64,000 nt of DNA from Thermoanaerobaculia bacterium (GTDB taxonomy: Bacteria > Acidobacteriota > Thermoanaerobaculia > Gp7-AA8): positions 1,239-65,238 of the forward strand of contig DASYMJ010000009.1 in assembly GCA_036009105.1 (NCBI GenBank). The letters run 5' to 3'. Positions 2,359 to 8,341 of this stretch are shown here, piece by piece (the stretch's first letter is position 1; every line of letters starts with the position of its first letter). The translations under genes were made by a program, and so were the position numbers. The notes under the pieces were generated by a model. The model did no database searches and was not told where the DNA came from. It worked only from the letters and a program-made list of their open reading frames with translations.

Positions 2359-5300
2359 TTAGATCCATGTATAGTCGAGCCCGGCTTCGGCCACTCCCGG
2401 CACCGCGGACGGCATCGTCAGCACCCCCGGACCTCCGTGCGGGGAGAGCGGGAGGATAAAGATCGAGTTCTGCAAGGCGCCGTGGCGAAGATGCGTGTTG
2501 TCGTCCACGGCGAGGAGATTCGTCATCGCCTCCGCCTCGATGTTGTTGACGTTCAGCGGGGTGACGAGGTCGTAGTGGCCGAGGAGCAGGCCGAGGGCGG
2601 CGGCGGCGACGGCAGGCGAGTCGATGAAAGCGGAGATCTCGGCGTCGTACTGCATGCTGCGATACGACCAGTTGGCCGAGCCGACGACCAGCGTGTCGTC
2701 GATGATGGCGATCTTGCCGTGCGTGTAGATGAAGTCCTGCCGCGCCTTGCTCAGGCAGGCATAGAGGTGAAAATTCGCCTCCACGCTGAGGATGCTTCCG
2801 AACGGCACGACCACCGGCCCGCCGCCGAGGATGAGCTGGAAGGTCAGGCTGTCTTCTTCGAACCATACCGTGTCGGGATCCGTGACGAACGCGTCGTCCA
2901 CCGTCCAGGCGTTGCAGAGCGCCGGGTCGACCGATTGGGGGCCGGCGCCGGCGCCGAGGTCATAGTGGACGCGCGTCACCTTCTGTGCCCCGGCGAGCGT
3001 GCGCAGGCGCAGCGCCAGCTGCAGCCAGGAGCGGCGGTTGAGATAGCCGGAGCCGCCGCCCTGGCGCGGCACGATGATCACCACCGGCATGTCCACCCCG
3101 GCCAGGCGCCGCGTCTCGTGGCGGGTGTAGATGGCGCGCACGATCTGCGGATCGCCGAAGTGATAGTTCTCCATGTAGATGAACGTGTTCGCGGCATTGA
3201 TCTTCGCGAGCAGCAGATCGAGGATGTGCGTGTACCGCGTTTCGCCGACCGCACGCGTCGTGGCGATCGTCACCGTACGGTTGTCGACGTGGTTGTTCTG
3301 CTTTGTCGTGTTCTCCCGGATCGTCACCGCCGTCTGCCGCACCGTCACCGCTGAGGACCACGCGAAGTTCCGGGCGCGGACCGTACCGGCGGCTCCGATT
3401 GCATCCCACATCCACTGCCGCGCCGTCACGTCCGCCTTCTTCCAGCGCCGCACCCACTCCGCTTCCACATCGTCCGTCGCCGGCCCGACCAGCCGCACCG
3501 CCGCATCGTGCCAGGTGCCGTTCGCGTGCGCGGCGTCGGAGAAGTAGTTCGAGGCCAGATTGATCCCGCCGATCACCGCCGTGCGCTGGCCGGCGATGGA
3601 GAAGATGGCGATCTTCTGGTGGAGAGAGGAGCCGAGCGGCCCCTCGTAGCGCTCGTGGAAAACGCGGGCCCGGCCGGCGCCGGCCAGCCCCACCACGGCC
3701 TGATCGAGCGCGGCCACCGCCTCGCCGAAAGCGATGTTCAGGGGCCGGACGCCGGCCGCCTCGCTGACCTGCCGTTCCGCCTGGCCGGGATCCCACAGGA
3801 TGATGTCGACGTCGTGGCCGGCGCGGATGACCTGATCGATATAAGTCCGCAGCAGGTGCGCCGGAAAGCCCTGGCAGGCGGCGCCGCCCAGCCAAACGTC
3901 TTTCTCCACCATCCAGAACGCCAGCCGCACGTAGGTGAGCGGATGGGGCGGCGCGCTGCGCACATCGTTCATCAGCGTCTGCAGCTCGGTAAAGTACGCC
4001 GCGCCGTCCATCAGGAAATGGGCCTGGTTGTTCCCCGTCTCGGCCGGCGTGGCGACGTACGTGAAGCCTCCCGGCAGAGGCGCTGAGGCCGGTTCGTTCG
4101 GATTGCGCACCGCGACGTCGACCGCCGCCGCGGTATGCGGCGGGACACGGACGGAGATCGTCGTCCCGTTCGTAAAGACCGTATCCGCCGCGGCGACGGC
4201 GACGTTATCCACCAGCACCGCCGCGCCGCGGATGAAATCGGTCCCGGTGACGGTGATCCATCGCCCCCCCTCCACCGGCCCGTTCGGCGGCACCACCGCC
4301 GTCACGGCGGGCGGCAGGCGGTAAGTGAAGTCGTTCGCCAGCTGGCCGGCGGCCGCATGCGGGTTCGTGACGTCGACGTGGGCCGGCCCCACGACATGGA
4401 TCGGGGTCCGCGCGGTGAGGGTGGTCGCGGACAGGCGGTTGATGAGGGTGGCCTGCGTGCCGCCGATGTCGATGCGCGGATTCTTCGCGAAGCCGGTCCC
4501 GCTGATGGTGACCGTGCGGCCGCCCGTCGTCCGCCCGTCAATCGGGTCAATCGCCGTCACTTGGGCCACGTCGTAGTAAGTGAAGCCGGCGGCGGCTGTC
4601 CCGGTGCGGCGGACCACGACGTCCACCGCTGCGGCCGCCGCGGCGAGCGGCGTCGTGATGCGCAGCGCCTGGGCGGAGTCGATGGTGAGGGCCGTGCCGG
4701 GAAGTCCACCTATCGTGACGGCCACGCCATCGCCGAAGCCGCCGCCGGCGATCACGAGCACGCTGTTGCCGGCCAGCGGCCCGGCGGCGGGATCGACGTC
4801 CATCGCCGCCTGGTAGGTGAAGCCTCCCGCGGACGTCAGCACCTGGGGGACTCGCCCCTCCCCTTCCGCGCCCGCCACCGTGCCGCGCACTTCGACATCC
4901 ACCGCCGCGGCTGCGCCGGGCGGCGCGGTCACGACGATCTCGATGGGGGAGCGGGACACCACTGGCGCCGCCGTGATCCCGAAATTGACGGCAGCGTCAT
5001 CCGGAAAGCCGCGGCCGCGGATGGCCACGCGCGTGCCGCCGACCGTCCGCCCCCTGGCGGGGAGGATGGCCGTGATCGCCGCGTCGCCCACGCTCGGCTG
5101 GGCGAGATCGAAATAGGTGAAGGCGTTGGCAAAGCGCGTCTCCCGCACCACCGTGACGTCGACCGCCCCCGCTGCCAGCACGGCCGGCGCGGTCACAGTC
5201 AGCTGCGTCGCCGACACGACGTTCGGCATCAGGCCGGGGGTGCCGCCGAAATCGACCGCCATCCCCTCGCCGAAGCCTTCGCCGTCGATCGTGACCGCGA

Positions 5301-7946: not shown

Positions 7947-8341
7947 CGGCGCGTGGCCCTTTCCAGCTCACGCCGCGCGGCGCGGTTCTGCTCCTCCCGC
8001 TGCTTGTCCCGGAGCGCCCGGGCCACGACGAGCCGGACGCGCTCGGAAACGTCGTCCACCGCCGGATCGGCGAGCTGCGCGTCGAGCCAGGGATGATCCT
8101 CCAGCCGCCATTCCAGCGCGGCGGCCACGTTGACCAGACGCACGCAATCGCGCTCGCTGGTCACGCCCGCTGCTTTTGCTCTTTCCAGCGCGGCGGTGAT
8201 TTTCGTGCGCAACGCGGGCCCATCCAGCTTCGCCGTCAGCGCAGGAAAGTGCTTGCGCACCTCGCACGCGAGTTGGGTGAGGAAGGCCTCCTCCTTCGCG
8301 GACGCGATCACCTGCACCTGCTCTGCACGGAGCGTAATCAC
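7943..8341 (-). CDS. hypothetical small alpha-helical protein (132 aa), first gene of the LysM/PLD sub-operon
   Basis: ORF track. Start-stop overlap with downstream gene at 7943-7946. No recognisable domain. Confidence 0.5.
   Translation of the reverse strand: MITLRAEQVQVIASAKEEAFLTQLACEVRKHFPALTAKLDGPALRTKITAALERAKAAGVTSERDCVRLVNVAAALEWRLEDHPWLDAQLADPAVDDVSERVRLVVARALRDKQREEQNRAARRELERATRR

What the first reader, a model, noticed from the sequence alone, without database searches (positions are those of the whole stretch)
2359..8341. Translationally coupled trio ending in an 11x IPT/TIG - phospholipase D giant protein, embedded among cell-wall (LysM, PG-binding, SLT) genes
A 1488-aa protein has eleven tandem IPT/TIG beta-sandwich domains followed by a full two-HKD PLD catalytic domain. 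IPT arrays normally sit in surface or adhesin proteins, but this one has no signal peptide. Its start overlaps the stop of a LysM plus PG_binding_1 protein (ATGA at 6825), which is in turn coupled to a 132-aa protein of unknown function. Directly downstream lie a lytic transglycosylase and a second LysM protein. This co-localisation suggests a cell-envelope-anchored or exported lipid-hydrolysing machine. One possibility is a toxin or membrane-remodelling effector with the small protein as chaperone or immunity factor. It is not a standard PLD/cardiolipin-synthase context. At DNA level the 11 IPT units form a diverged ~250-bp internal tandem array.
Basis: partly seen in the sequence, partly recalled or inferred. 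Interest (0 to 1): 0.65.

Follow-up and report, generated by a model that had tools for sequence, protein, structure and literature searches.

The report
Orphan T6SS phospholipase D effector module
This is a conserved, mobile three-gene cassette: a phospholipase D toxin on a stalk of eleven Ig-like domains, plus two helper proteins built from type VI secretion spike and adaptor parts, so it is most likely an injected weapon and its cell-wall gene neighbours are coincidental.

Summary
The three minus-strand genes are real: 132 aa, 373 aa and 1488 aa, the last being 11 TIG domains plus a two-HKD phospholipase D. None has a signal peptide. The same trio, in the same order, occurs in at least seven other loci from Myxococcota, a close relative of this organism and uncultured lineages. 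Outside the close relative the flanks are unrelated, so the SLT and LysM neighbours are coincidental.

Three results tie the trio to type VI secretion (T6SS).
- The middle protein's LysM-like/beta-sandwich/PG_binding_1 core sits directly downstream of vgrG in 19 of 43 species-representative loci.
- Its N-terminal domain is homologous to the C-terminal beta-sandwich of those VgrGs (E 2e-11).
- The 132-aa protein is a stand-alone copy of the effector-binding C-terminal lobe of DUF4123 (Tap/Tec) T6SS adaptors. It is found fused to DUF4123 and to the middle protein, and its model matches Tap3 (TM 0.66).

The PLD domain models confidently and matches lipid PLDs, including the T6SS effector PldA.

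Best reading: an orphan T6SS cargo module carrying a Tle5-like phospholipase. Caveats: the window holds no T6SS core gene, no immunity gene was found, and TIG arrays are unreported in T6SS effectors. The claimed DNA-level repeat array was not confirmed. This is a new variant of a known kind, of moderate interest.

The parts
7943..8341 (-). 132-aa all-helical protein (GTG start). It is a stand-alone homologue of the C-terminal, effector-binding lobe of DUF4123 (Tap/Tec) T6SS adaptors, analogous to co-TecT.
   Evidence: No Pfam, NCBIfam, PADLOC or PHROG hit. The family has 337 clusters at E<=1e-3. P0148 and P0150 are DUF4123 plus this domain. P0064 and P0077 are this domain fused to the middle protein. 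The AF2 model has pLDDT 96.9. The best PDB match is Tap3 in 9r8g_B, with TMq 0.66 and rmsd 2.3 A.
6825..7946 (-). 373-aa accessory protein. It has a disordered N-terminus, a VgrG-C-terminal-type beta-sandwich, a LysM-like domain, a second beta-sandwich and PG_binding_1. Its start overlaps the small gene's stop (ATGA at 7943-7946).
   Evidence: The core family lies directly downstream of vgrG in 19 of 43 loci.
7545..7745 (-). Transthyretin/CarboxypepD_reg-like beta-sandwich (aa 68-134) of the middle protein. [quoted passage not shown]
   Evidence: An HMM built from 27 VgrG C-termini and related domains hits it at E 2.1e-11. Pfam CarboxypepD_reg and SpaA hits are weak. Translation checked.
7302..7460 (-). 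LysM-like segment (aa 163-215) of the middle protein.
   Evidence: This is the most conserved block of the family (W188, N193, L196, R200, G209, D210 and P215 are invariant). Pfam LysM is found only weakly, and only in orthologues. Translation checked.
6849..6995 (-). PG_binding_1 domain (aa 318-366) of the middle protein.
   Evidence: Pfam 4.8e-12. PHROG endolysin cell-wall-binding regions also match it.
4054..6816 (-). Array of 11 IPT/TIG beta-sandwich domains (aa 4-924) forming the N-terminal stalk of the 1488-aa protein.
   Evidence: Pfam TIG 4e-104 with 11 stretches. Orthologues carry 4, 6, 9 or 11 repeats.
2362..4020 (-). Phospholipase D catalytic domain (aa 936-1488). HKD motifs lie at 3598-3621 and 2698-2721, and a conserved [NDS][YFH]xW motif sits at the extreme C-terminus.
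   Evidence: The AF2 model has pLDDT 84.4 and pTM 0.89. Foldseek top hits are human PLD1/PLD2 (E 6e-20), Streptomyces and plant PLD, and P. aeruginosa PldA 7v55/7wdk.
2359..6825 (-). Whole TIGx11-PLD gene. Its start shares one base with the stop of the middle gene (TGATG).

Best explanation
The trio is an 'orphan' type VI secretion cargo module, meaning it is not next to vgrG.

- **1488-aa protein (toxin).** It is a lipid-hydrolysing, eukaryotic-type phospholipase D that is functionally Tle5-like. It sits at the end of a rod of 11 Ig-like TIG domains. It has no signal peptide because it would leave the cell on the T6SS spike.
- **373-aa protein (loading and targeting accessory).** Its N-terminal beta-sandwich is the same domain that forms the C-terminal effector-docking tip of VgrG spikes in related loci. 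Its LysM-like and PG_binding_1 domains would bind peptidoglycan once the complex is in a target's periplasm.
- **132-aa protein (adaptor lobe).** It is a free-standing version of the effector-binding C-lobe of DUF4123 Tap/Tec adaptors, like co-TecT. It probably works as a chaperone or adaptor together with the middle protein.

What is shown: the domain identities, the homologies, the gene fusions and the genomic associations. What is inferred: physical assembly on a VgrG, T6SS-dependent export, phospholipase activity and the target.
For: 1. **The trio is a conserved unit.** It has the same order and mostly overlapping or tightly spaced junctions in the window, L054, L001, L002, L055/56, L057, L058 and L062. 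Outside the close relative L054 the flanks are unrelated.
2. **The middle protein's core is vgrG-linked.** The LysM-like/beta/PG_binding_1 core was found in 43 species-representative genome loci. In 19 of them the gene directly upstream is a VgrG, with Phage_GPD, Phage_base_V and Gp5_trimer_C at E 1e-72 to 2e-90. A ClpV-like ATPase lies further upstream in L037, and BLAST-cluster relatives lie upstream in L015 and L041. Downstream genes vary and include Het-C-like, PAAR and Amidohydro_2 proteins.
3. **The middle protein carries a VgrG tip domain.** Its N-domain matches an HMM of those VgrG C-termini at E 2.1e-11. L001 matches at 4.7e-11 and L002 at 3.7e-21. VgrG C-terminal TTR-like domains load PldA and PldB in P. 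aeruginosa (PMC6684961).
4. **The small protein is an adaptor lobe.** P0148 and P0150 carry DUF4123 (E 5e-32 and 3.5e-29) followed by this domain, which is 28% identical over 119 aa. The AF2 model (pLDDT 96.9) best matches the adaptor Tap3 in the Tap3-Tke5 complex, with TMq 0.66, rmsd 2.3 A and probability 1.00. Tap3's C-terminal domain is a five-helix bundle that contacts the effector. Split adaptors (TecT/co-TecT) are known (PMC11582642).
5. **Rosetta-stone fusion.** P0064 and P0077 join the small domain to the middle protein. P0064 is 40% identical to the middle protein over 353 aa.
6. **The small family accompanies different cargo.** Partners include a PAD arginine deiminase, a TM-rich protein and others. 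The next gene often begins with the same beta-sandwich.
7. **The PLD is a lipid PLD.** Catalytic His, Lys and Asn are invariant, and the fold matches lipid PLDs including the T6SS effector PldA.
8. **PLD-only relatives sit in toxin contexts.** One lies next to a PAAR-like DUF4280 gene (L010). Another lies in an AHH/Imm11 toxin island (L009).
9. **Precedents exist for LysM in vgrG-linked effectors.** Examples are M. xanthus VgrG2-TsxE and the Acinetobacter VgrG-LysM-Het-C proteins.
Against: - **No T6SS genes in the window.** It holds no vgrG, hcp, PAAR-like, DUF4123 or other T6SS core gene. Whether this Thermoanaerobaculia MAG has a T6SS could not be checked.
- **Other Thermoanaerobaculia loci lack VgrG nearby.** The two with the accessory family (L046, L049) show no VgrG within 8 kb by my HMM.
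- **More than half of the loci lack an adjacent VgrG.** That is 24 of the 43 accessory-family loci.
- **No immunity gene was found.** No conserved candidate follows the PLD in any trio locus. Tle5 effectors normally have adjacent periplasmic immunity genes.
- **Most stand-alone PLD homologues show no detectable T6SS linkage.** They pair instead with a different ~140-aa partner.
- **TIG arrays are unreported in T6SS effectors** in the searched literature. A rod of 11 Ig domains is an awkward spike cargo.
- **The structural match is modest by E-value.** The Foldseek E-value for the Tap3 match is only 0.06.
Confidence: 0.62

Rival explanations
1. This is a toxin-immunity cassette in which the 132-aa protein is the cytoplasmic immunity or inhibitor of the PLD. 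The delivery route is unspecified.
For: - It is the only small conserved partner gene in the operon, and no other immunity candidate exists.
- Stand-alone PLD homologues have a conserved small helical partner without a signal peptide, showing that this PLD clade tends to pair with small cytoplasmic proteins.
Against: - The 132-aa family is unrelated to that partner. The c1 HMM finds nothing in the window or the trio loci.
- It is homologous to the adaptor C-lobe of DUF4123 proteins.
- It is fused to the middle protein, not to the PLD.
- It accompanies unrelated cargo such as a PAD enzyme.
- It lies upstream rather than downstream of the toxin.
Confidence: 0.13
2. This is a T6SS-independent extracellular weapon or digestive enzyme. 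The proteins would be released by lysis, vesicles or an unknown route, as in myxobacterial predation. The LysM/PG_binding protein would anchor a PLD-on-a-stalk to prey or self cell walls.
For: - There are no T6SS genes in the window.
- 24 of 43 accessory-family loci lack an adjacent vgrG.
- Signal-less proteins with PG_binding_1 are typical of phage endolysins.
- TIG arrays are typical of surface proteins. NCBIfam matches a 'choice-of-anchor Z' repeat.
Against: - The vgrG adjacency, the VgrG-tip domain and the Tap C-lobe homology together are hard to explain without a T6SS.
- No holin or lysis gene is linked to the trio.
Confidence: 0.15
3. The trio would be a self cell-envelope lipid-remodelling machine working with the neighbouring SLT lytic transglycosylase and LysM protein.
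For: - The genes are co-directional and lie close together in the window, with a 135-bp gap to SLT.
- The same arrangement occurs in the close relative L054.
Against: - The SLT and LysM neighbours are absent from all other trio loci.
- Upstream neighbours are housekeeping genes: AMMECR1, LAB_N/GT2 and TatD.
- None of the trio proteins has an export signal.
Confidence: 0.04
4. The PLD protein is a housekeeping phospholipid-synthesis enzyme of the cardiolipin or phosphatidylserine synthase type, as some database names suggest.
For: - Sources name some homologues 'cardiolipin synthase'.
- NCBIfam gives weak cardiolipin synthase hits.
Against: - Those hits score 17-35 bits against cut-offs of 281-787.
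- The closest folds are hydrolytic PLDs.
- There is no transmembrane anchor.
- The family is rare and patchy, with 19 homologues among 5.8 billion proteins.
- The domain is fused to TIG arrays and linked to adaptor-like genes.
Confidence: 0.02

Closest known systems
Tle5 T6SS phospholipase D effectors PldA/PldB of Pseudomonas aeruginosa, with VgrG4b/VgrG5
   Same: - Both have a dual-HKD, eukaryotic-type PLD fold. 7v55 and 7wdk are among the Foldseek hits, at E 1.6e-13 and 4.5e-12.
- Neither has a signal peptide.
- In P. aeruginosa loading depends on a transthyretin-like beta-sandwich at the VgrG C-terminus (PMC6684961). A homologous type of domain is encoded immediately upstream of this PLD.
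   Different: - Sequence identity is only about 13-14%.
- Here the docking beta-sandwich is not on VgrG. It is fused to a LysM-like/PG_binding_1 protein.
- There is no adjacent vgrG and no adjacent periplasmic Tli5-type immunity gene.
- The PLD carries 4-11 N-terminal TIG domains.
- The hosts are Acidobacteriota and Myxococcota.
DUF4123 (Tap-1/Tec/Tap3/Tap6/Tap14) T6SS adaptors and the split pair TecT/co-TecT
   Same: - The 132-aa protein is homologous to the helical C-terminal lobe, by natural fusions with DUF4123 and by its structural match to Tap3.
- That lobe recognises the effector.
- Stand-alone C-lobes (co-TecT) are known.
   Different: - No DUF4123 N-lobe, the VgrG-binding half, is encoded in the trio or the window.
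- The partner here is a VgrG-tip-like/PG-binding protein.
- The small gene is fused to that partner in some genomes.
LysM-containing vgrG-linked effectors: Myxococcus xanthus VgrG2-TsxE (LysM + amidohydrolase 2) and the Acinetobacter evolved VgrG-LysM-Het-C proteins
   Same: - A peptidoglycan-binding module is encoded right after or fused to VgrG, followed by a variable toxin.
- The same toxin types (Het-C, Amidohydro_2) follow the accessory family here.
   Different: - There the LysM domain is part of the effector or of VgrG itself.
- Here LysM-like/beta/PG_binding_1 is a separate conserved protein, and the toxin is a separate gene.
Eukaryotic-type and secreted bacterial phospholipases D (human PLD1/2, plant PLDalpha, Streptomyces PLD)
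   Same: - These are the best structural matches, at E 6e-20 to 1e-13 with TM about 0.5-0.6.
- They share the motifs WHD...RW and IY.EN.
   Different: - This protein has no PX/PH or C2 domains and no signal peptide.
- It has the N-terminal TIG array.
- The first HKD motif has Ser in place of Asp.

Membership tests
PLD superfamily (HKD phosphodiesterases) | Two HxK(x)4D(x)6G(G/S)xN motifs in one chain | tested here: met
   HQKIAIFS...GGIN lies at aa 1069 and HGKIAIID...GSAN at aa 1369. His, Lys and Asn are invariant in 17 homologues. The first motif has an invariant Ser instead of Asp.
PLD superfamily (HKD phosphodiesterases) | Bilobal PLD fold of the lipid-hydrolysing branch rather than the Nuc nuclease branch | tested here: met
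   The AF2 model has pLDDT 84.4. The top 50 Foldseek hits are all lipid PLDs: PLD1/2, Streptomyces, plant, Moritella and PldA.
PLD superfamily (HKD phosphodiesterases) | Phosphodiesterase activity on phospholipids | not testable with these tools
   This needs an enzyme assay.
Tle5 (T6SS phospholipase D effectors) | Genetic linkage to vgrG, PAAR or a T6SS cluster | tested here: not met
   The 64-kb window holds no vgrG, PAAR-like or T6SS core gene. None lies within 8 kb in L001 or L002. Linkage is only indirect, through the two accessory genes.
Tle5 (T6SS phospholipase D effectors) | Adjacent cognate periplasmic immunity gene (Tli5) | tested here: not met
   No conserved gene follows the PLD in any trio locus.
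Tle5 (T6SS phospholipase D effectors) | T6SS-dependent secretion and killing | not testable with these tools
   This needs genetics and competition assays.
DUF4123 Tap/Tec adaptors | N-terminal alpha/beta DUF4123 lobe that binds the VgrG or PAAR C-terminus | tested here: not met
   No Pfam hit in the 132-aa protein. phmmer with DUF4123 lobes finds nothing in the window.
DUF4123 Tap/Tec adaptors | Helical C-terminal lobe that recognises the effector | tested here: met
   The sequence is homologous to the C-terminal 120 aa of the DUF4123 proteins P0148 and P0150. The model matches Tap3 chain 9r8g_B, with TMq 0.66 and rmsd 2.3 A.
VgrG spike | gp27-like and gp5-like core (Phage_GPD, Phage_base_V, Gp5_trimer_C) | tested here: not met
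   The core is absent from the middle protein. Only HMM positions for the C-terminal ~100 aa match.
VgrG spike | C-terminal transthyretin-like effector-docking domain | tested here: met
   aa ~40-134 of the middle protein match the VgrG C-terminus HMM at E 2.1e-11.
IPT/TIG (PF01833) | Ig-like beta-sandwich repeats matching the Pfam model above its cut-off | tested here: met
   341 bits against a cut-off of 20.9, with 11 stretches.
LysM (PF01476) | Match to the Pfam LysM model | tested here: inconclusive
   There is no hit at E<0.1 in the window protein. Orthologues P0022 and P0024 give weak hits. The sequence pattern at aa 163-215 is LysM-like.
PG_binding_1 (PF01471) | Match above the Pfam cut-off | tested here: met
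   46.3 bits against a cut-off of 23, at aa 318-366.

The most novel reading that the evidence does not exclude
The small and middle proteins may form a previously undescribed 'detachable spike tip'. It would be a free VgrG C-terminal docking domain fused to peptidoglycan-binding domains, assembled with a stand-alone Tap C-lobe. This tip would let a phospholipase ride on a VgrG encoded elsewhere. After injection it would anchor the toxin to the victim's cell wall. The variable TIG rod (4-11 domains, about 15-40 nm) would then act as a spacer that sets the reach of the PLD from the peptidoglycan to a membrane. The absence of an immunity gene would mean the target lipid or target organism differs from the producer, for example eukaryotic or phylogenetically distant prey.
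Probability: 0.15. Interest if true: 0.75.

Novelty: new variant of a known kind. Interest (0 to 1): 0.5.

Why it matters
T6SS effector loading is understood almost only in Proteobacteria. Three pieces found here are not described as such in the literature I could search.
- A conserved LysM-like/beta-sandwich/PG_binding_1 accessory family encoded right after vgrG in Planctomycetota, Acidobacteriota, Myxococcota, Thermodesulfobacteriota and others.
- A widespread stand-alone version of the DUF4123 adaptor C-lobe, with 337 clusters at 50% identity.
- A VgrG tip domain that has moved from the spike gene onto the accessory protein.

Together they suggest a modular way to attach cargo to spikes encoded elsewhere. 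They also offer a marker for finding effectors in poorly studied phyla, such as the PLD-on-a-stalk here and a protein-arginine deiminase in L049. The PLD itself, with its variable Ig-domain stalk and no immunity gene, would be an unusual T6SS lipase.

Tried and rejected
- **Defence system.** PADLOC gives only marginal DrmC-like hits (E 0.0025-0.009) to the HKD motif. Rejected.
- **Phage or tailocin lysis cassette.** PHROGs matches only the PG_binding_1 part of endolysins and a TIG-like family of unknown function. No holin or phage genes lie nearby. Rejected.
- **Cardiolipin synthase.** NCBIfam hits fall far below their cut-offs. Rejected.
- **DNA-level tandem repeat.** TRF and pairwise DNA identity against a codon-shuffled control show none.
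- **Word-indexed searches underestimated family sizes.** They found only the small protein itself and 13 hits for the middle protein. The exhaustive profile search and the pattern scan of genomes were needed.
- **First locus scan failed.** The full 9-sequence alignment had no sufficiently conserved stretch. A 4-sequence core alignment worked.
It was redone with hits from the representative search.
- **PLD or TIG among the 43 vgrG-type loci.** None was found.
- **T6SS markers around 32 stand-alone PLD homologues from metagenomes.** None was detectable with my local HMMs. A different conserved ~140-aa partner appeared instead.
- **tRNA and Rfam scans of the window.** Nothing was found.
- **Promoter and terminator scan.** It was uninformative.

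
Full report
**What is in the sequence**

On the minus strand three genes run head to tail: 7943-8341 (132 aa, GTG start), 6825-7946 (373 aa) and 2359-6825 (1488 aa). 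Their third-codon-position GC is 0.83-0.90 in a 68% GC window, so they are real genes.

- **Junctions.** The small and middle genes overlap by ATGA at 7943-7946. The middle and large genes share one base in TGATG at 6825.
- **The large protein.** Pfam finds 11 TIG stretches (E 4e-104). It also finds PLDc_2 and PLDc over the second HKD motif. Both HKD motifs exist: HQKIAIFS at aa 1069 and HGKIAIID at aa 1369.
- **The middle protein.** It has PG_binding_1 (4.8e-12) and a sub-threshold CarboxypepD_reg hit. Pfam calls no LysM, although aa 163-215 look LysM-like and orthologues score weakly.
- **The small protein.** It matches nothing in Pfam, NCBIfam, PADLOC or PHROGs.
- **Export signals.** None of the three has an N-terminal export signal.
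- **The repeat array.** The 11 TIG units are 21-52% identical as protein. As DNA they are 0.62 identical, against 0.59 for codon-shuffled controls. TRF sees no array, so the DNA-level repeat claim fails.

**The neighbourhood is coincidental but the trio is not**

Upstream lie AMMECR1, LAB_N plus a family-2 glycosyltransferase, TatD and a thiolase. Downstream lie a membrane-anchored SLT transglycosylase and a secreted LysM protein. The window comes from a Thermoanaerobaculia (Acidobacteriota) MAG.

A 94%-identical relative (L054) keeps the same flanks. The trio also occurs elsewhere in the same order, with unrelated flanks:
- Archangium minus (L001);
- Myxococcota MAGs (L002, L055/L056);
- three metagenome contigs (L057, L058, L062).

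The orthologues are 26-32% identical for the small protein, 35-40% for the middle protein and about 37% for the PLD protein. The number of TIG domains varies: 11, 11, 9, 6, 4, 4 and 4. Every orthologue starts directly with a TIG domain and ends with a conserved [NDS][YFH]xW motif. The unit of selection is therefore the three-gene cassette, not the cell-wall gene cluster.

**The middle protein**

A pattern scan of one genome per species used the conserved LysM-like/beta/PG_binding_1 core. It found 43 loci in Planctomycetota, Acidobacteriota, Thermodesulfobacteriota, Myxococcota, Hydrogenedentes and a cyanobacterium, often with several copies per genome.

- **vgrG adjacency.** In 19 of these loci the gene immediately upstream is a full VgrG with Phage_GPD, Phage_base_V and Gp5_trimer_C. 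A ClpV-type ATPase lies further upstream in L037. Proteins of the same BLAST cluster lie upstream in L015 and L041.
- **Variable downstream genes.** They include Het-C-like, PAAR-containing and Amidohydro_2 proteins and many unknowns. This is the layout of vgrG-accessory-effector islands.
- **Published precedents.** Myxococcus VgrG2-TsxE (LysM plus amidohydrolase 2) and the Acinetobacter VgrG-LysM-Het-C proteins show the same combination.
- **The VgrG tip domain.** The last ~100 residues of those VgrGs form a small beta-sandwich. Pfam scores it as a SpaA/prealbumin-like fold in L041. An HMM of it matches the N-terminal domain of the window's middle protein at E 2.1e-11. It matches L001 at 4.7e-11 and L002 at 3.7e-21.

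So the trio's middle protein equals the tip of a VgrG plus the accessory protein that normally follows VgrG. In P. aeruginosa the C-terminal transthyretin-like domains of VgrG4b and VgrG5 bind, stabilise and deliver the PLD effectors PldA and PldB (PMC6684961).

**The small protein**

An exhaustive phmmer search of 1.84 billion representatives found 337 clusters at E<=1e-3. Most are 120-145 aa stand-alone proteins. The longer hits are informative.

- **Fusions to DUF4123.** P0148 and P0150 have an N-terminal DUF4123 domain (E 5e-32 and 3.5e-29) followed by this domain. It is 28% identical over 119 aa.
- **Fusions to the middle protein.** P0064 and P0077 are the small domain fused to a full middle protein. 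P0064 is 40% identical to it over 353 aa.
- **Structure.** AlphaFold gives a very confident helical bundle (pLDDT 96.9). Its only meaningful PDB match is the DUF4123 adaptor Tap3 in the Tap3-Tke5 complex, with TMq 0.66, rmsd 2.3 A and probability 1.00 but E 0.06.
- **Known function of the lobe.** Tap3 has an alpha/beta N-domain and a five-helix C-terminal bundle that contacts the effector. In DUF4123 adaptors the N-lobe binds the VgrG C-terminus and the variable C-lobe binds the effector. The two lobes can be separate genes, as in TecT and co-TecT (PMC11582642).
- **Occurrence in the vgrG-type loci.** The small family also appears in L015, L025, L043, L044, L046, L049 and L050. It typically sits directly before a large gene whose product often begins with the same beta-sandwich. 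Its catalytic part differs from case to case; in L049 it is a protein-arginine deiminase.

A conserved partner with changing cargo argues for an adaptor or chaperone rather than an immunity protein.

**The PLD**

With 17 homologues the catalytic domain models well (pLDDT 84.4, pTM 0.89). Its best structural matches are human PLD1/PLD2, Streptomyces and plant PLD, a Moritella PLD and P. aeruginosa PldA, alone and with its immunity protein. Catalytic His, Lys and Asn of both motifs are invariant.

The clade is rare, with 19 hits among 5.8 billion proteins.
- **PLD-only relatives in toxin contexts.** One lies next to a PAAR-like DUF4280 gene in a Zixibacteria MAG. Another lies in an AHH/Imm11 toxin island in Corallococcus.
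- **PLD-only relatives without T6SS markers.** Most metagenomic stand-alone relatives show no T6SS marker detectable with my HMMs. They pair instead with an unrelated ~140-aa helical protein directly downstream.

**Interpretation**

The most economical reading is an orphan T6SS cargo module.
- A Tle5-like phospholipase is the toxin.
- A co-TecT-like adaptor lobe is the small protein.
- An accessory protein carries both a VgrG-tip docking domain and peptidoglycan-binding domains.

What is shown: the domain identities, the homologies, the gene fusions, the vgrG adjacency of the accessory family, and the conservation and mobility of the trio. What is inferred: assembly on a spike encoded elsewhere, export, lipase activity and the target.

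The main weaknesses are these.
- The window has no T6SS gene.
- I could not inspect the rest of the MAG.
- No immunity gene is present.
- Eleven Ig domains are unprecedented for a T6SS effector in the searched literature.

I put this explanation at about 0.62. T6SS-independent release is at about 0.15 and an immunity role for the small protein at about 0.13.

**Novelty and score**

The concept of a T6SS cargo effector with an adaptor is well known, so this is a new variant of a known kind. Four features would interest specialists:
- the undescribed vgrG-linked LysM-like/PG_binding_1 accessory family in non-proteobacterial phyla;
- the widespread stand-alone Tap C-lobe;
- the relocation of the VgrG tip domain;
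- the TIG-stalked PLD without an immunity gene.

Interest: 0.5.

Noticed in passing
window 44186-50823 (- strand): Three co-directional genes lie here. They are a VWA-domain protein (49420-50823), a 910-aa Tubulin_2 (PF13809, E 7.5e-63) protein (46691-49423) and an 833-aa protein with no Pfam match (44186-46687). This is a bacterial tubulin-like/VWA cluster of unknown role.
   Followed up: no
window 38633-41029 (+ strand): A 798-aa protein has an N-terminal caspase (Peptidase_C14) domain, E 1.9e-19. The remaining ~450 aa match nothing.
   Followed up: no
window 57288-60442 (- strand): An AAA_5 (MoxR-like) ATPase of 528 aa, a 141-aa unknown and a VWA_2 protein of 364 aa lie in a row. Other VWA/TPR/TonB_C genes lie at 15201-20698.
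   Followed up: no
window 33667-37236: A stretch of about 3.5 kb has lower GC (0.64 against about 0.69). It has no ORF with the high third-position GC typical of this genome. No tRNA or Rfam match occurs anywhere in the window.
   Followed up: partly
L049 9697-11928 (Thermoanaerobaculia MAG DASVSV010000112): A 743-aa protein carries an N-terminal CarboxypepD_reg beta-sandwich followed by PAD_M and PAD, a eukaryotic-type protein-arginine deiminase (E 6e-66). It is encoded right after a member of the 132-aa adaptor-lobe family. It is a candidate T6SS arginine-deiminase effector.
   Followed up: partly
L063-L089, e.g. L071 922-5371: Stand-alone PLD homologues of about 530 aa are followed directly by a conserved helical protein of about 140 aa without a signal peptide. 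This holds in at least 18 loci, and L071 has two tandem PLD-partner pairs. The partner family is absent from all trio loci and from the window. It may be a cognate immunity or accessory protein.
   Followed up: partly
L005 7384-10636: In this variant the VgrG-tip-like domain (206-aa protein) and the LysM-like/PG_binding_1 protein (235 aa) are separate overlapping genes. They are followed by a 383-aa acidic protein and a 253-aa acidic protein with an HWDHDH metallo-beta-lactamase-like motif.
   Followed up: partly
L021 4256-8612 (Nannocystaceae): A 698-aa protein ends in the LysM-like/PG_binding_1 core. It sits next to a 772-aa LCAT/PGAP1-like alpha/beta-hydrolase, a putative lipase. This is another lipase paired with the accessory family.
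   Followed up: no
window 2359-2400 and all PLD homologues: The extreme C-terminus is conserved, with Trp as the penultimate residue, across this PLD clade (DYTWI in the window protein; NYTW/NFTW/SYQW/HTW plus a final I, F, Y, L or T in the others). Its role is unknown. The model has low confidence there.
   Followed up: no
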